A program made the translations under genes and the position numbers. Below the pieces are notes generated by a model. It worked only from the letters and a program-made list of their open reading frames with translations, had not been told where the DNA came from and ran no database searches. This document shows, piece by piece, positions 5,182 to 46,537 of a stretch of DNA of 64,000 bases. Each line of letters begins with the position of its first letter. Position 1 is the first letter of the stretch. Location of the stretch: positions 1 through 64,000 of IMG/VR virus record IMGVR_UViG_3300020576_005620. One strand, given 5' to 3'. Origin of the DNA: a virus. Its lineage: Duplodnaviria; Caudoviricetes.

Positions 5182-5730
5182 ATGTCAATATCTACACGTA
5201 AAAGATTTAGAGTCTTTACACGAGATAACTTTACATGTAGATACTGTAACAGATCTGCTTTTAATGATGGTGTAATTCTTCATGTAGATCATGTTCATCC
5301 TAAATCGAAATTGGGCAGTGATGAACTAGAGAACTTAGTCACTGCCTGTAAGGAATGCAACCTTGGCAAAAAGGATGAGATTATAGATCTTCCTTTCAAT
5401 AAAGAAAGTAAGTCCCCAAATCTTTCCCAAACATTTGATAAATTTTTAACTTCTCATCCTTTATTCAAGAAACAGGTTAAAGATCTAGAATTTAATCTCA
5501 GAAGGGAAACTGCGGCTCTAGAAGAAAAAATAGAAAGGCTTGAAAGAGAGATCATTTCTTTAAAAGAAGAGACTAGTACTCTCAAGAAAAGTGTTTCATT
5601 CTATAAAAAAGCTTATGACCAAAATAGCGAATATCTAAAGGCTGAATACACAAGAAGTTTTAGATACTGTTCAATGTTCTTTGATATATACCTAAAATAT
5701 CAAGAACTTCTTTCTAAGAAGAATTCTTAG
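5182..5730 (+). CDS. HNH endonuclease with C-terminal coiled coil
   Basis: RDNFTCRYC, LHVDHVHPKS, ENLVTACKECNLGK. Confidence 0.9.
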   Translation: MSISTRKRFRVFTRDNFTCRYCNRSAFNDGVILHVDHVHPKSKLGSDELENLVTACKECNLGKKDEIIDLPFNKESKSPNLSQTFDKFLTSHPLFKKQVKDLEFNLRRETAALEEKIERLEREIISLKEETSTLKKSVSFYKKAYDQNSEYLKAEYTRSFRYCSMFFDIYLKYQELLSKKNS

Positions 5731-6958: not shown

Positions 6959-7708
6959 ATGGCAAACTCACGTCTATCGCAAATCTTATCCATTGCAGCT
7001 GTTATAGTTGATGGCAACTATGCCAAACTTACAGAAATCTACCAAGGCTTGAAAAACACTGCAAGTTTTACTGGCCATACAAAAGTTTACACCCCTACTA
7101 CCGAGGATGGGACAAAACTTCCAAGCGACAACAAAAATGTTGCGAAGAGCGTTTATCAAATTCTTCGCACCGTTACCAAGTGTTCGTCTGAAATTCTGAA
7201 TCACAAACTTCTTTGGGAATCAGGAAACACTGTTGCTAAGGCAAGTGTTACTTGGAACGGACAGGTGGTTCTTGAAAACGCTCCCGTAGGTTTTCTTCTA
7301 GCCTTTGAAAAGCATCTTGACAGACTTCGAGCTGTTGCTGGCGATCTTCCAACTTACGATCCTGAAAAGAAATGGGACTTTGATCAAGCTTCAGAGAAAT
7401 GGACATCTGAACCTGTTCGGTCTAACCGAGAAGTTTCCAGGAATACTTGGATTGCAGTTCCTGATTCTGGCAACCCAGATAAGGGAGTTCCAAATGAAGT
7501 CAGAGAAGTTTCTCAGCTGGTTTTGGAAGGAAGTTGGGAAAAGATTGAGCTTTCAGCATCTCTCTCACCTGTTCAAAAAGCAAAGCTTTTGGAAAACATT
7601 GATTCTCTCAAAGTTGCAGTTAAGTCTGCCAGAGAAGAAGCAAATGCAAAAGAGATTGCTCCTGTAGCAGACCTGACTCCATTGATGACTAAGGTCTTCT
7701 CTGTATAA
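6959..7708 (+). CDS. Conserved uncharacterised ~240-aa protein (recalled as DUF7873-like), directly upstream of the permuted-tRNA-like ncRNA
   Basis: AAGGA RBS; motifs L.QI..I, G..KVY.P..EDG..LP, P..FLL..EK.L..L......LP..DP...W, AVK.AREEAN; family name recalled from memory, not searched. Confidence 0.65.
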   Translation: MANSRLSQILSIAAVIVDGNYAKLTEIYQGLKNTASFTGHTKVYTPTTEDGTKLPSDNKNVAKSVYQILRTVTKCSSEILNHKLLWESGNTVAKASVTWNGQVVLENAPVGFLLAFEKHLDRLRAVAGDLPTYDPEKKWDFDQASEKWTSEPVRSNREVSRNTWIAVPDSGNPDKGVPNEVREVSQLVLEGSWEKIELSASLSPVQKAKLLENIDSLKVAVKSAREEANAKEIAPVADLTPLMTKVFSV

Positions 7709-7740
7709 CGATTTCCCACCGAAAAATCGGTGGGGCGAGG

Positions 7741-8185
7741 CAGACTCATAATTAGCCTCATTGTCAAAACCTTCGGATAGGGTCAACCACTTTAAATGCC
7801 TTTTAAGGCCTTCTAGGTTCGAATCCTAGTGGGGACACCAAAAGCATCTTAGAAATAGGATGTTTCTGATGTCCCTCATGGGCAAATTGGTAACGCCGTT
7901 TAAAGTGTATATCCATGTTAGATTATCCTCACAGAATCATAAACAGTTAGTGTCTTTAATCAAGTAGTTTGAGCAATTGTATTCTACATCAGTTCGAATC
8001 TGATCACCCTCTCCAAAAACTTTAGCATGAGGGTGTAGTTTAGTGGTAAAATGGAATAACGACCTGTTGACTCACTCTTTAAAACGTGTAAAGACATAAA
8101 ACGAAAGAGAACAAAATATTGTCTTGTAAACAATAGTATCTAACATATTATCGCCCCCATCTTCGGATACTAGGTGGGGGCACTT
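7741..8185 (+). ncRNA. Large structured ncRNA with two circularly permuted tRNA-like domains
   Basis: T-arm + acceptor 3' strand + NCCA precede the matching acceptor 5' strand + D-arm twice (7788-7907 and 7980-8058); nested long-range helices 7915-7923/8138-8146 and 7951-7958/8089-8096; closing GC hairpin 8153-8181. Confidence 0.85.
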
Positions 8186-8269
8186 AAACCTTCTACGGGT
8201 TTACTAACACATTTTGATTTAACGTGGCTGTATGGGCATCCTAGAGCCAAATAAAGGCATTCTAGAGAG

Positions 8270-9109
8270 ATGCATATGACCAAGGTAAAAGATCTTCTTG
8301 ACAAAAAAGTAATAGGCACTGGTGATGTCCCAGAACATTTCCCTGACTCAATTCATTACGAAGTCATAATGGGAAGTTATGCTTATGGTGTCAGCGAAGG
8401 ATCTTCTGATCTAGATATCTATGGCTTTGCTATACCACCAAAGGAGATTTTATTTCCCAGCCTGGCAGGTTATATTCCTGGATTTGGTCAACAGCCTGAG
8501 AAATTTGAGCAGTGGCAGATGCACCATTTGGTTGATGAATCTACTGAATATGATTTTTCAATCTATAGCATAGTGAAGTACTTCTCACTAGTGATGAGCA
8601 ACAACCCAAACATGGTTGACAGTCTTTTCGTGCCAGATCATTGTGTACTCTATGAGTCTTCAATTGCTAAAATGATCAGGGAAAAAAGACTTTTGTTCTT
8701 ACACAAGGGGTCTTACCATACCTTTAAAGGCTATGCTTATCAGCAGTTAAGCAAATTAAGAGTTAAGAATCCTACTGCTGGTCCAAGATTAGAGTCAGTT
8801 CAAAAATATGGTTACGATGTTAAATTCGCTTATCATATAGTTAGACTGATTGACGAAGTAGATCAGATTTTGAATGATACTACTCTAGTTCTTGGGCGAA
8901 ATGCTGAAGACATGAAAGCTGTAAGAAATGGGGAATGGTCTCTAGAGCGAGTTGAAAAATTCTTTGAAGACAAACTTGCCTATCTAGAGAAAAGCTACAT
9001 ATCTTCCACGCTTCCGCATAGCCCAGATGAAGCTAAAATAAAGTCTCTATTACTTGATTGTTTAGAGGAACATTATGGCAGCTTAAAAGACTGCGGAAAT
9101 TTTAGGTAA
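8270..9109 (+). CDS. Pol-beta superfamily nucleotidyltransferase (RlaP/YcgL-like)
   Basis: GSYAYG...SSDLD.YG motif, NPN...LF, GYA..QL, YD.K.AYH.VRL. Confidence 0.85.
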   Translation: MHMTKVKDLLDKKVIGTGDVPEHFPDSIHYEVIMGSYAYGVSEGSSDLDIYGFAIPPKEILFPSLAGYIPGFGQQPEKFEQWQMHHLVDESTEYDFSIYSIVKYFSLVMSNNPNMVDSLFVPDHCVLYESSIAKMIREKRLLFLHKGSYHTFKGYAYQQLSKLRVKNPTAGPRLESVQKYGYDVKFAYHIVRLIDEVDQILNDTTLVLGRNAEDMKAVRNGEWSLERVEKFFEDKLAYLEKSYISSTLPHSPDEAKIKSLLLDCLEEHYGSLKDCGNFR

Positions 9110-9335: not shown

Positions 9336-10052
9336 ATGGAACACGTTTACAATGCTAACGGTTTGCCTTTTTGGGGTGAACAAGAAATTCTAACAAGAAA
9401 CTACTTGATTGAATCTTTTGCAGGGCAAGTTAAACATATACTTTTGTCTGCAAATAAAGCGTGGTCTTTTCACAGAATTGAATCCCCTTGTTTAATTCCA
9501 CAAGAGCTGATTAATAGTGAGTATACAGAGGAACAGGTTTTTGTTACCAGCAATAGCTTTGTTCTTAAACCCGAAACTACTCCAGCTAGTTATGCTTATG
9601 CGGAAAAGCTGTTAGGATCTCAACAAATCCTCCCACCCTTTGTAGTATGGCAAGCTTCTAAAAGCTTTAGAAGAGAGCAGGATCAGGCTACAAAGAATAT
9701 GCGTCTTAAGGAATTCTACCAACAGGAGTTTCAATGTATTTTTACAGAAGATACAAAGAATGATTACTTCTCCTACTGTTTGGAATTTCTAAGAGAAGCT
9801 ATTCTTACACATCTTTGTCTTGATACTAGAATAGTAGAAAGTGACAGGCTTCCATCGTATAGTTTAAAAACTATGGATATTGAAGTTTTAAGCAAAGATA
9901 AGTGGATGGAGGTAGTAAGCATCTCTCTTCGGAAAGATGTACCCTTTAAAGTTAGGTTTAAAGATCAAGAAAAATCTCTACTTAACTTGGAGATCGCTAT
10001 AGGTCTCGATAGGTGCGTCTACAATAAGCTAAGGCTTTTTAATAATGTTTGA
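9336..10052 (+). CDS. Stand-alone class II aaRS catalytic core, GlyRS (alpha2-type)-like, no anticodon-binding domain
   Basis: LKPETT, KSFRRE (motif 2), RLKEFYQQEFQ, PSYS..T.DIE, W.EVVSIS.R, EIAIGLDR (motif 3) in only 238 aa. Confidence 0.8.
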   Translation: MEHVYNANGLPFWGEQEILTRNYLIESFAGQVKHILLSANKAWSFHRIESPCLIPQELINSEYTEEQVFVTSNSFVLKPETTPASYAYAEKLLGSQQILPPFVVWQASKSFRREQDQATKNMRLKEFYQQEFQCIFTEDTKNDYFSYCLEFLREAILTHLCLDTRIVESDRLPSYSLKTMDIEVLSKDKWMEVVSISLRKDVPFKVRFKDQEKSLLNLEIAIGLDRCVYNKLRLFNNV

Positions 10053-10401: not shown

Positions 10402-10476
10402 GGCGGGGTGGCGCAGTGGCAGCGCGTTGGTCTCATAAACCAAAGGTCAGTGGTTCAAGTCCACTTCCCGCACCCA
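10402..10476 (+). tRNA. tRNA-Met(CAU), initiator-like acceptor
   Basis: GGCGGGG/TCCCGCA with 1:72 mismatch, CT-CAT-AA loop, CCA. Confidence 0.8.
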
Positions 10477-10551
10477 GGGCGATTAGCTCAGCGGTAGAGC
10501 AGGTCCTTTACACGGACAAGGCCAGGGGTTCGAATCCTCTATTGCCCACCA
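10477..10551 (+). tRNA. tRNA-Val(UAC)
   Basis: GGGCGAT/ATTGCCC acceptor, TT-TAC-AC loop, CCA; abuts the previous tRNA. Confidence 0.92.
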
Positions 10552-46188: not shown

Positions 46189-46537
46189 GGGGCTGTCAGG
46201 CTTCGATGGTGTACTAGATACCTTAGTTGCAGGGCGTGGATGTATCCTTGGCCACGTAAAAATGGATATAAAAAATAAGCGACAAATCATACGCTTTCTT
46301 GGGTTAATTACCTAAGCCGCTGAAAGATGGACGAGTTAGAGTACTCTGATGCGGACGAATTGAACTAACTAAGCTCAAAAACTTTTGTTTAAGGTTGGGA
46401 GTCGAAAATTGAATTAAACAAGACTTCAGATAGGTTTGTCCTTCCCAAAATCTGATTTTACTAAATAAGGAAAAACTCTGTAGTAGCTGACGTTGAAGGT
46501 AGATCAGAAGGGGGTTCGATTCCCCCCAGCTCCACCA
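46189..46537 (+). ncRNA. ssrA: tmRNA
   Basis: GGGGCTG...TTCGA 5' end, GGGGG-TTCGATT-CCCCC-CAGCTCC-ACCA 3' end with G3.U70; tag frame GAC AAA TCA TAC GCT TTC TTG GGT TAA (46281-46307). Confidence 0.95.

What the first reader, a model, noticed from the sequence alone, without database searches (positions are those of the whole stretch)
6959..8185. Protein gene plus a ~450-nt ncRNA carrying two circularly permuted tRNA-like domains
Seen in sequence: after the 249-aa ORF and a hairpin (7715-7734) lies an ORF-free RNA in which tRNA halves appear in reversed order twice. Domain 1: CACTTTAAA (7788-96), variable arm GCC-TTTTAA-GGC, T arm CTAGG-TTCGAAT-CCTAG (7813-29), TGGGGAC-A-CCA (7830-40), a GAAA-capped linker hairpin, then GTCCCTCA (7871-78), D arm GGC-AAATTGGTAAC-GCC and TTTAAAGTG (7899-7907), which closes the 'anticodon' stem. 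It looks Leu-like (long arm, A73). Domain 2: TATTC, T arm ATCAG-TTCGAAT-CTGAT (7988-8004), CACCCTC-T-CCA (8005-15), a 13-nt linker, GAGGGTG-TA-GTTT-AGTGGTA-AAAT, GAATA. It looks Gly-like (U73). Neither has an anticodon loop; both stems run into a scaffold held by perfect long-range helices (ATGTTAGAT 7915-23/ATCTAACAT 8138-46; TGTCTTTA 7951-58/TAAAGACA 8089-96). Established: this permuted order occurs in bacterial YrlA Y RNAs and two-piece tmRNAs, with one domain each; no Ro60 gene is visible here. Inference: the upstream conserved protein and this RNA form an RNP. RNase P cleavage plus 3' trimming could expose two chargeable CCA ends on one scaffold, or the RNA could act as a tRNA decoy against anticodon nucleases or other sensors.
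Basis: partly seen in the sequence, partly recalled or inferred. Interest (0 to 1): 0.95.

Follow-up and report, generated by a model that had tools for sequence, protein, structure and literature searches.

The report
Two-headed tRNA-mimic RNA beside DUF7873
This phage carries an unstudied protein gene (DUF7873) followed by a folded RNA of about 450 bases with two back-to-front, anticodon-less tRNA look-alikes; the same gene-RNA pair recurs in most related phage and bacterial loci I sampled and I found it in no RNA library or paper, so it is probably an undescribed RNA-protein particle built on tRNA mimicry.

Summary
The 249-aa ORF is a DUF7873 protein. The ORF-free 7709-8181 is one structured RNA with two circularly permuted tRNA bodies.

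It is not a one-off. A covariance model built only from other phages hits the window at 71.5 bits (E 2e-16). The same model finds the RNA downstream of DUF7873 in 76 of 83 viral sources and about 69 of 80 bacterial chromosomal loci. No other neighbouring gene is conserved. Helices covary.

Points I did not find among the earlier notes I retrieved:
- Head 1 is a tRNA-Leu mimic across the family; LeuRS ignores the anticodon. Head 2 has no clear isotype, so "Gly-like" is not supported.
- The linkers keep N73, C74 and often CCA, and end in a pre-tRNA-like leader before G+1.
- Period-6 repeat tracks flank head 1.
- DUF7873 is predicted to form a homodimer.

Rfam YrlA and tmRNA models, the Ro60 motif, and Ro60 and RtcB genes are all negative here. 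Binding, processing and charging are untested.

This scan has found the same pair before on other DNA (123 notes, at least 76 genomes). I found no publication.

The parts
6959..7708 (+). DUF7873 protein gene (249 aa)
   Evidence: Pfam PF25283, E 4.8e-49. 1651 clusters at 50% identity in the protein library. AF2 model pLDDT 94.6: four long helices plus a beta sheet. Homodimer predicted.
7715..7734 (+). 5' hairpin (8 bp, AAAA loop) just after the stop codon
   Evidence: Sequence and MFE fold. A-U changes to G-C as a compensatory change in L001. A hairpin at this position is seen in many relatives.
7742..7771 (+). A track: five in-phase hexamers (AGACUC AUAAUU AGCCUC AUUGUC AAAACC), family pattern A-R-G-Y-U-N
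   Evidence: Family lag-6 autocorrelation 0.43 and lag-12 0.34, against a baseline of about 0.22. Predicted unpaired in the RNAalifold consensus.
7769..7783 (+). Small hairpin with a UCGGAUA loop (lineage-specific)
   Evidence: U-G changes to C-G in L001. The loop motif is the same as in the 3' hairpin.
7788..7907 (+). Head 1: permuted class II, tRNA-Leu-like body. Closing stem 7788-96/7899-7907; variable-arm hairpin 7798-7809; T arm 7813-29; acceptor 3' strand 7830-36; A73 and CCA 7837-40; linker with hairpin 7841-70; acceptor 5' strand 7871-78; D arm 7880-98.
   Evidence: ARAGORN calls the un-permuted form a class II tRNA. Compensatory U-A to C-G in the closing stem and U-G to C-G in the acceptor against L001. 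Family D arm best matches tRNA-Leu.
7908..7950 (+). B track, including GAUUAUCCUCACAGAAUCA, which matches the family consensus (Y)UCAGAU-UAUYGCUC-NAGAYUCAG
   Evidence: Anchored alignment of 43 relatives. Lag-6 autocorrelation 0.33.
7915..7923 (+). 5' strand of the outer 9-bp helix (partner 8138-8146); lineage-specific
   Evidence: Perfect complement and present in the MFE fold. Unchanged in L001 and no family counterpart detected.
7951..7958 (+). H_a, 5' strand (partner 8089-8096)
   Evidence: Family helix. Own-versus-cross complementarity 7.1 against 4.5 bp. Compensatory pairs in RNAalifold. Aligned by CM R1. G-C changes to A-U in L001.
7959..7965 (+). Conserved junction J (AUCAAGU; family AUCGACC/AUCAAGG)
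7980..8058 (+). Head 2: permuted class I tRNA body. Closing stem 7980-84/8054-58; T arm 7988-8004; acceptor 8005-11/8029-35; U73 and CCA 8012-15; linker 8016-28; D arm 8038-52.
   Evidence: ARAGORN calls the un-permuted form a 73-nt tRNA. CM R1 gives 71.5 bits. Compensatory changes in the T stem, the closing stem and acceptor pair 2:71 against L001.
8078..8088 (+). Conserved junction J' (UUUAAAACGUG; family UUAAACGCC)
8089..8096 (+). H_a, 3' strand
   Evidence: As for 7951-7958.
8138..8146 (+). 3' strand of the outer helix
   Evidence: As for 7915-7923.
8153..8181 (+). 3' terminal G+C-rich hairpin with a CGGAUA loop; probable 3' end of the RNA
   Evidence: A stable hairpin whose loop holds GGNUA occurs in 31 of 48 relatives, against 7 of 480 shuffles. 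Covarying stem in RNAalifold.

Best explanation
Window 7709-8181 encodes a member of a widespread structured-RNA class that I could not find published. The class is about 400-470 nt and is genetically tied to the DUF7873 protein encoded just upstream.

The RNA is a scaffold made of a 5' hairpin, two period-6 repeat tracks, helices H_a and H_b with conserved junctions, and a 3' hairpin. It displays two complete tRNA bodies whose anticodon loops are replaced by the scaffold and whose acceptor ends are joined by a variable linker. Head 1 imitates tRNA-Leu.

Most likely mechanism (inferred):
- The DUF7873 homodimer and the RNA form a Ro60-independent particle of the Y-RNA type, which presents tRNA-shaped heads to tRNA-handling machinery.
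- In this phage the long linkers (34 and 17 nt, ACCA and UCCA, then AU before G+1) are probably cut by RNase P and trimmed. That would give a multi-piece RNA held together by base pairing, with free CCA ends, as shown for M. smegmatis YrlA and as occurs in two-piece tmRNA.
- Head 1 could then be leucylated, because LeuRS does not read the anticodon.

What is shown: sequence anatomy, conservation, covariation and synteny. What is inferred: binding, cleavage, charging and the cellular role.
For: 1. Family membership. CM R1 was built from 21 viral sequences, none from this lineage. It matches 7948-8098 end to end at 71.5 bits, E 1.9e-16.

2. Synteny. Full-length R1 hits of at least 49.7 bits lie downstream of DUF7873 on the same strand in 76 of 83 viral sources; three of the others are cut by a contig end. 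Hits of at least 42.8 bits lie there in about 69 of 80 chromosomal loci of Myxococcota, Planctomycetota, Actinomycetota, Cyanobacteriota, Acidobacteriota and others. No other neighbouring gene family is conserved.

3. Structure.
- RNAalifold on a plain MAFFT alignment of 13 sequences gives 56 pairs, 39 of them with compensatory changes.
- Own-versus-cross complementarity: H_a 7.1 against 4.5 bp, H_b 7.8 against 4.0, head-2 closing stem 5.2 against 3.7. The head-1 closing stem gives z = 6.1.
- Against the 84%-identical relative L001, the RNA is 92% identical while the DUF7873 CDS is 83% and RlaP 78%. There are six double compensatory changes.

4. tRNA likeness. ARAGORN accepts both un-permuted heads as tRNAs.

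5. Leu identity of head 1.
- Its D arm best matches tRNA-Leu in 37.6 of 49 relatives, although Leu is only 13% of the reference tRNAs. Head 2 scatters over isotypes.
- A73 is present in 38 of 50 viral and 49 of 51 bacterial head 1 copies.
- LeuRS, AlaRS, SerRS and PylRS do not recognise the anticodon (PMC11028032). [quoted passage not shown] That matches the two D-arm forms seen in head 1.

6. Processing signals.
- C74 is present in 91 of 100 viral heads and CCA in 53 of 100. Only about 12% of genuine tRNA genes in the same loci encode CCA.
- The linkers end in Y(-3) R(-2) U(-1) before G+1. This matches the leaders of 186 genuine tRNAs in these loci.
- M. smegmatis YrlA, which also has a 7-bp acceptor stem, is cut by RNase P and receives CCA in vivo (PMC4201824).

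7. Protein. The DUF7873 model is confident, pLDDT 94.6. For two copies of DUF7873 the complex model supports binding but does not show it: score 0.71, best of 3 controls 0.00. That mark was reached by 20 of 30 proteins solved as pairs of one chain and by 1 of 23 solved as single chains. The runs agree in at least 97% of contacts and partner pLDDT is at least 88. A symmetric dimer fits a two-headed RNA; that link is my inference.
Against:
- DUF7873 is near neutral (family median pI 6.3), although about 11 positions are conserved as basic. It has no recognisable RNA-binding fold.
- Some relatives cap the acceptor stem with only 4-6 nt. Bacterial head 1 almost never encodes CCA (2 of 51) and mostly has C at -1. 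Free, chargeable ends therefore cannot be the universal mode.
- Head 1 of this window has a bulged or mismatched acceptor stem, and its D arm is only weakly Leu-like (score 11).
- H_b is weak in this window, at 4 bp.
- About 4 of 80 viral and 6 of 75 untruncated bacterial loci show no RNA with this model.
- An earlier later-check in this scan (e1-2703945) priced the protein-binds-RNA reading at only 22/100.
Confidence: 0.6

Rival explanations
1. The RNA acts on its own or in cis, for example as a structured 3' UTR or stabiliser of the DUF7873 mRNA, or as an RNA-only assembly. DUF7873 does not bind it; the two are merely co-transcribed.
For: - No promoter- or terminator-like site separates the gene from the RNA.
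- The protein is not basic and has no known RNA-binding fold.
- Other large phage RNAs near tRNA clusters (GOLLD, ROOL) assemble without protein (my own knowledge).
Against: - The gene and the RNA stay linked across very distant phyla and phages with no third partner. That is the usual signature of a functional pair.
- Period-6 repeat tracks that are predicted unpaired look like protein-binding sites.
- A predicted dimer fits two heads.
Confidence: 0.2
2. It is a decoy that soaks up host defence or toxin enzymes acting on the tRNA body or acceptor end, such as CCA-modifying or acceptor-stem-cleaving toxins, and so protects phage and host tRNAs.
For: - It lies in a phage region rich in tRNAs, next to an RlaP RNA-repair nucleotidyltransferase. 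RlaP adds nucleotides to damaged RNA 3' ends (bioRxiv 10.64898/2025.12.29.696909).
- The heads keep N73, C74 and CCA-like sequence.
Against: - The pair is also chromosomal in many bacteria with no phage context visible in the 1.5-kb flanks.
- RlaP and the mini synthetase accompany it only in this lineage, in 1 of 84 other loci.
- The heads lack anticodon loops, the target of most known tRNA-directed defence nucleases (my own knowledge).
Confidence: 0.12
3. It is a member of the Ro60-bound YrlA Y RNA family whose Ro60 partner is supplied by the host or lies in the missing 16% of the phage record.
For: Same permuted plan: T arm, closed acceptor stem, D arm, and a stem in place of the anticodon arm (PMC4201824). 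The record is only 84% complete.
Against: - No TROVE or Ro60 match in the 194-kb record.
- No match to the YrlA Rfam family even at E up to 10.
- No GNCGAAN0-1G Ro-binding motif in 7709-8200.
- The constant neighbour is DUF7873, in phages and bacteria alike.
Confidence: 0.04
4. It is a second, two-piece (permuted) tmRNA, or a pair of permuted tRNA genes that mature into working tRNAs.
For: Weak Rfam hits of head 2 to cyano_tmRNA (18.6 bits) and to the permuted tmRNA model (14.5 bits). Encoded CCA ends.
Against: - The scores are far below the gathering thresholds of 70 and 47 bits.
- ARAGORN, which finds permuted tmRNAs, calls nothing here. The phage already has a standard tmRNA at 46189-46537.
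- There is no G3:U70 pair; pair 3:70 is C-G in head 1 and G-C in head 2.
- Neither head of this window has an anticodon loop; both closing stems run into a conserved scaffold.
Confidence: 0.03

Closest known systems
YrlA-class bacterial and phage Y RNAs with Ro60/Rsr, especially the Mycobacterium smegmatis form (Chen et al. 2014, PMC4201824; Rfam YrlA)
   Same: - A tRNA-like module in permuted order, with T arm, D arm and an acceptor-type stem closed by a loop.
- A stem in place of the anticodon arm that leads to the protein-binding part.
- Encoded next to its protein partner.
- The M. smegmatis RNA has a 7-bp acceptor stem, is cut by RNase P and gains CCA.
   Different: - The partner gene is DUF7873, not Ro60; there is no Ro60 gene and no Ro-binding motif.
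- No Rfam YrlA match.
- Two heads on one RNA.
- Period-6 repeat tracks, the H_a/H_b junction core and a 3' GGNUA-loop hairpin.
- Head 1 is isotype-specific (Leu).
- The RNA is three to four times longer.
Two-piece (circularly permuted) tmRNA with SmpB
   Same: - Gene order is 3' acceptor half, intervening segment, 5' acceptor half.
- An anticodon-less tRNA-like domain of an isotype whose synthetase ignores the anticodon.
- Encoded CCA.
- Maturation gives base-paired pieces.
- A small dedicated protein partner.
   Different: - Leu-like rather than Ala-like; no G3:U70 pair.
- No tag reading frame and no pseudoknot series.
- Two heads.
- Rfam tmRNA scores are far below threshold.
- The phage has a normal tmRNA as well.
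Circularly permuted tRNA genes of the red alga Cyanidioschyzon merolae (my own knowledge, not checked here)
   Same: The 3' half precedes the 5' half, with a short linker between CCA-proximal sequence and position +1. RNase P and 3' processing remove the linker.
   Different: Those genes keep an anticodon loop and give normal tRNAs through a circular intermediate. Here the anticodon loop is absent, and the closing stems continue into a conserved scaffold shared by two heads.

Membership tests
DUF7873-linked two-headed tRNA-mimic RNA (unnamed family defined here and in earlier notes of this scan) | Core of head 2 with helices H_a and H_b and junctions AUCGACC and UUAAACGCC | tested here: met
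   CM R1, built without this lineage, gives 71.5 bits, E 1.9e-16, and matches the full model at 7948-8098.
DUF7873-linked two-headed tRNA-mimic RNA (unnamed family defined here and in earlier notes of this scan) | Lies directly downstream of a DUF7873 gene on the same strand | tested here: met
   PF25283, E 4.8e-49, at 6959-7708. The same arrangement is seen in 76 of 83 viral and about 69 of 80 bacterial loci.
DUF7873-linked two-headed tRNA-mimic RNA (unnamed family defined here and in earlier notes of this scan) | Leu-like first head, period-6 tracks, and a 3' hairpin with a GGNUA loop | tested here: met
   Head 1 is class II, has A73 and its best D-arm match is Leu, though weakly. Five in-phase hexamers lie at 7742-7771. 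The 3' hairpin at 8153-8181 has a CGGAUA loop.
YrlA / Ro60 Y RNA | Ro60 (TROVE) partner gene nearby | tested here: not met
   No PF05731 match in the 194-kb record; the controls responded. The record is 84% complete.
YrlA / Ro60 Y RNA | Ro60-binding helix with the GNCGAAN0-1G motif (PMC4201824) | tested here: not met
   No occurrence in 7709-8200.
YrlA / Ro60 Y RNA | Match to the Rfam covariance model | tested here: not met
   The family is not among the matches at E up to 10 with permissive filters.
YrlA / Ro60 Y RNA | Permuted tRNA-like module (T arm, closed acceptor stem, D arm) | tested here: met
tmRNA (one-piece or permuted) | Alanine identity pair G3:U70 and a tag reading frame | tested here: not met
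   Pair 3:70 is C-G in head 1 and G-C in head 2. ARAGORN reports no tmRNA here.
tmRNA (one-piece or permuted) | Rfam model score at or above the gathering score | tested here: not met
   cyano_tmRNA 18.6 against 70 bits; tmRNA_permuted 14.5 against 47 bits.
Functional circularly permuted tRNA gene | Intact 7-nt anticodon loop after un-permuting | tested here: not met
   In this window both closing stems (7788-96/7899-7907 and 7980-84/8054-58) open directly into scaffold sequence.
RNase P substrate | 7-bp acceptor stem, G+1, unpaired leader with U at -1, N73 then C74/C75 | tested here: met
   The sequence features are present in both heads. Cleavage itself cannot be tested with these tools.
Known protein folds for DUF7873 | Structural relative in the PDB or the ESM Atlas | tested here: inconclusive
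   No Foldseek hit at E up to 0.001. The best VIA Z of 8.6 is to helical designs only. The Atlas returns only DUF7873 itself.

The most novel reading that the evidence does not exclude
The particle is a protein-dimer-held platform that carries two aminoacylatable tRNA heads on one RNA: a leucine-accepting head and a second head, perhaps charged in this phage by its anticodon-blind GlyRS-like mini synthetase. It would then work either as a ribosome-independent aminoacyl or peptidyl transfer device or as a double A-site/P-site mimic that manipulates ribosomes.
Probability: 0.08. Interest if true: 0.97.

Novelty: new variant of a known kind. Interest (0 to 1): 0.8.

Why it matters
tRNA mimicry by non-coding RNAs is known from tmRNA/SmpB and from Ro60-bound YrlA, and the purpose of the tRNA-like module in YrlA is still open. 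Here the same design principle is joined to a different, uncharacterised protein. It is duplicated on one scaffold, and it is conserved from jumbo-type phages to myxobacteria, planctomycetes, actinomycetes and filamentous cyanobacteria.

The first head consistently copies tRNA-Leu, one of the few tRNAs whose synthetase ignores the anticodon. That makes a concrete and cheap prediction: leucylation after RNase P nicking. It also gives DUF7873, a family of more than 1600 sequence clusters, a testable partner.

Several carriers are cultivable and genetically tractable, for example Nostoc, Anabaena and Actinomadura.

Tried and rejected
- **Rfam.** The gathering scan found only the ordinary tRNAs and the tmRNA. 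The permissive scan of 7650-8300 gave only sub-threshold chance-level hits (SpF41 27 bits, cyano_tmRNA 18.6).
- **DNA and protein look-ups.** DNA similarity to deposited phages found nothing.
- **Fold of DUF7873.** No relative found. Foldseek against the PDB had no hit at E up to 0.001; low-probability Cas7 and SRP9/14 rows had TM of about 0.12. VIA wide gave a best Z of 8.6 to designed helical bundles. The Atlas returned only DUF7873 itself.
- **Other libraries.** NCBIfam and PHROGs gave nothing for DUF7873.
- **Conserved partner genes.** None found in viral or bacterial flanks. RlaP and the mini synthetase are confined to this lineage. There is no RtcB in the record.
- **Pairing between the A and B tracks, or of either with other segments.** The own-versus-cross test is inconclusive because the tracks are conserved in sequence (z at most 2.7).
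- **A family counterpart of the outer helix 7915-23/8138-46.** None detected.
- **Promoter and terminator scan.** Nothing informative near the RNA.
- **False positives of CM R1.** Its hits at 10409-10548 and at G000 193878-193939 are adjacent ordinary tRNAs.
- **Literature.** Searches for DUF7873, permuted tRNA-like phage RNAs and RlaP-linked tRNA-like RNAs found no description. Burroughs and Aravind 2016, which proposes a tRNA-like RNA with SPFH proteins, is not held.
Full report
**Setting.** The window is the first 64 kb of a 194,459-bp IMG/VR viral record estimated to be 84% complete. All genes run on the + strand. The window carries 12 tRNA genes and a one-piece tmRNA.

The ORF at 6959-7708 is a DUF7873 protein (PF25283, E 4.8e-49). 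Downstream lie:
- an RlaP RNA-repair nucleotidyltransferase at 8270-9109;
- tRNA-Tyr;
- a 238-aa class II synthetase core at 9336-10052, whose best but weak matches are GlyRS.

**Observation.**
- The minimum-free-energy fold of 7709-8200 reproduces both permuted tRNA-like domains and both long-range helices. It is more stable than all 100 shuffles (z = -4.05).
- I cut each head at the scaffold and rejoined it in normal tRNA order with an artificial 7-nt loop. ARAGORN then calls head 1 a 90-nt class II tRNA and head 2 a 73-nt class I tRNA.
- So each head is a complete tRNA body that lacks only the anticodon loop.
- Head 1's acceptor stem has one bulged or mismatched base.

**It is a family.** DUF7873 has 1651 clusters at 50% identity in the protein library.
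- In the first distant relatives I fetched (about 30% protein identity), the gene was again followed by a gap of 460-530 nt holding two permuted tRNA bodies.
- A simple pattern (5-bp T stem, T loop, 7-nt strand, linker, perfect complement) finds 2.42 units per kb in the 700 nt after DUF7873 genes. The rate is 0.047 per kb elsewhere, 0.015 on the opposite strand and 0.004 in shuffles. 52 of 73 distinct viral loci have two strict units.
- That pattern presupposes pairing, so I built a covariance model (R1) for a test with a formal score. It covers head 2 and its surrounding junction and uses 21 viral sequences, excluding this lineage.
- R1 matches the window end to end at 7948-8098 (71.5 bits, E 1.9e-16).
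- R1 finds a full-length hit downstream of DUF7873 in 76 of 83 viral sources.
- R1 also finds one in about 69 of 80 chromosomal loci from Polyangiaceae, Pirellulaceae, Gemmata, Actinomadura, Spirillospora, Nostoc, Anabaena, Blastocatellia, Trueperaceae and others. Several of the misses are contig ends.
- No other gene family is conserved next to the pair in phages or bacteria.
- RlaP and the mini synthetase accompany it only in this phage lineage.

**Architecture and covariation.** RNAalifold on a plain MAFFT alignment of 13 relatives recovers the following (56 pairs, 39 with compensatory changes):
- the head-1 closing stem, T arm, acceptor stem and D arm;
- helices H_a and H_b;
- the head-2 T arm, acceptor stem and D arm;
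- a 3' hairpin.

An alignment-free check compares each sequence's own strands with strands taken from other sequences:
- H_a 7.1 against 4.5 bp;
- H_b 7.8 against 4.0;
- head-2 closing stem 5.2 against 3.7;
- head-1 closing stem z = 6.1.

Conserved single-stranded junctions flank H_a and H_b: AUCGACC-like and UUAAACGCC-like, which are AUCAAGU and UUUAAAACGUG in this window. The helix 7915-23/8138-46 seems special to this lineage.

Against the closest relative, L001 (84% protein identity):
- The RNA is 92% identical, while the DUF7873 and RlaP coding sequences are 83% and 78%.
- Six changes are double and compensatory: in the 5' hairpin, the head-1 closing stem, H_a, the head-2 closing stem, the head-2 T stem and head-2 acceptor pair 2:71.
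- Three changes are one-sided G-U shifts and two are disruptive.

Two stretches, before head 1 and between the heads, are predicted unpaired and have a six-base period. Lag-6 identity is 0.43 and 0.33 against about 0.22, with the pattern A-R-G-Y-U-N. The window has five in-phase hexamers at 7742-7771. The RNA ends in a G+C-rich hairpin whose loop holds GGNUA, seen in 31 of 48 relatives against 7 of 480 shuffles.

**What the heads imitate.** Head 1's D-arm region best matches tRNA-Leu in 37.6 of 49 relatives, although only 13% of the reference tRNAs are Leu. Head 2 scatters over Gln, Arg, Leu, His and Gly.
- Head 1 comes in two forms. One is a class II form. The other is a short form whose D arm equals that of the 74-76-nt type I tRNA-Leu genes carried by the same phages. 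Type I tRNA-Leu is known in Streptomyces and is leucylated there (PMC6614811).
- The discriminator is fixed for each head. It is A in head 1 (38 of 50 viral, 49 of 51 bacterial) and U or G in head 2 (47 of 50 and 50 of 51).
- LeuRS is one of the few synthetases that ignore the anticodon (PMC11028032). The same logic lets tmRNA use alanine.
- This is the strongest argument that charging of head 1 may matter. "Gly-like" for head 2 is not supported.

**Linker signals.**
- Beyond N73 the linker varies from 4 to 76 nt.
- C74 is present in 91 of 100 viral heads and position 75 is C or U. Full CCA is present in 53 of 100, against 1.6% expected by chance.
- Only about 12% of the genuine tRNA genes in the same loci encode CCA.
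- The last three linker bases are Y-R-U before G+1. The 186 genuine tRNAs of these loci have the same leader signature.
- These are RNase P-type determinants. The precedent is M. smegmatis YrlA, whose 7-bp acceptor stem is cut by RNase P and gains CCA in vivo (PMC4201824).
- Against a universal role: some linkers are only 4-6 nt. Bacterial head 1 rarely has CCA (2 of 51) and mostly has C at -1.
- For this window the linkers are long (34 and 17 nt), carry ACCA and UCCA, and end in AU before G+1. Cleavage is therefore plausible here. I put it at about one in two.

**The protein.**
- AlphaFold gives a confident model (pLDDT 94.6) of four long helices packed on a beta sheet.
- I found no convincing structural relative (see Tried and rejected).
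- The family is near neutral in charge, with about 11 conserved basic positions and invariant W139, W193, R225, E226 and N229.
- For two copies, the complex model supports binding but does not show it. The score is 0.71 and the best of 3 controls is 0.00. That mark was reached by 20 of 30 proteins solved as pairs of one chain and by 1 of 23 solved as single chains. The runs agree in at least 97% of contacts and partner pLDDT is at least 88.
- A symmetric dimer would suit a two-headed RNA, but that link is my inference.

**Comparison with known systems.** The plan is that of YrlA Y RNAs, but the defining features fail:
- no Ro60 gene;
- no Rfam YrlA match at E up to 10;
- no Ro-binding motif.

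It is not a tmRNA:
- no G3:U70 pair and no tag;
- Rfam scores far below threshold;
- a normal tmRNA exists elsewhere in the window.

It is not a pair of working permuted tRNA genes, because there are no anticodon loops. I found no paper describing it. The 2016 proposal by Burroughs and Aravind of a tRNA-like RNA with a non-Ro partner could not be read here.

**Earlier notes of this scan.** The same pair has been reported many times on other DNA (123 notes in at least 76 genomes), with the same general reading. I reached the family independently before opening those notes. I therefore did not find noted before: the Leu identity of head 1, the leader and CCA statistics set against neighbouring tRNA genes, the homodimer prediction, and the absence of conserved partners in both phage and bacterial samples.

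**Verdict.** It is a real, widespread and apparently unpublished RNA-protein gene pair. Its mechanism is still inferred.

Noticed in passing
window 9336-10052 (+): A 238-aa class II aminoacyl-tRNA synthetase catalytic core with no anticodon-binding domain. The best but weak matches are GlyRS (NF003211, 49 bits against a cut-off of 312; PDB GlyRS E 3e-5) and PylRS. It is 94.5% identical in L001 but absent from the flanks of all other DUF7873 loci.
   Followed up: partly
window 8270-9109 (+): An RlaP (PF10127) RNA-repair nucleotidyltransferase lies directly after the RNA. The adjacency is seen only in this lineage (L001). In L001 an RNA ligase gene (PF09414) lies about 4 kb further on.
   Followed up: partly
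window 7769-7783 and 8153-8181: Two hairpins in the same RNA carry the same loop core, CGGAUA. The 3' one is family-conserved (GGNUA). The 5' one seems lineage-specific. They may be a repeated protein-binding or loop-docking site.
   Followed up: partly
L025, L029, L059, L060, L068 (flanks of the DUF7873 locus): Several related phages carry 74-76-nt tRNA genes with Leu anticodons and a short variable loop (type I tRNA-Leu). L025 has four copies. L012, L053 and L076 carry normal 82-87-nt class II tRNA-Leu genes, and L059 and L068 carry both kinds. The D arm of the short ones equals that of head 1 in those phages.
   Followed up: partly
L003 2100-2140; L005 5135-5160: In some relatives head 1 keeps an anticodon-like hairpin with a 7-nt loop CU-NNN-GA and is joined to the scaffold through the variable-arm position instead. 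The family therefore uses two different permutation points for the Leu-like head.
   Followed up: partly
L088 1535-1622 (-) = G000 near 193.9 kb: ARAGORN calls an 88-nt tRNA-Asn(GUU) with a long extra arm inside a Pro-Phe-Asn-Ile tRNA run. A class II-shaped Asn tRNA would be unusual.
   Followed up: no
L008 1271-1360; L076 1203-1293; L053 1040-1124; L068 583-675; L013 2315-2419: CM R1 and the pattern scan give extra partial hits (28-39 bits) upstream of the DUF7873 gene in several phages. They may be further permuted units or merely adjacent tRNAs.
   Followed up: no
window 5182-5730 (+): An HNH endonuclease gene lies among the small ORFs just upstream of tRNA-Lys. A similar HNH gene sits upstream in L001.
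   Followed up: no
L041, L042, L054: These DUF7873 loci show no R1 hit, or only weak ones, downstream. The RNA may be lost, moved or too diverged.
   Followed up: no
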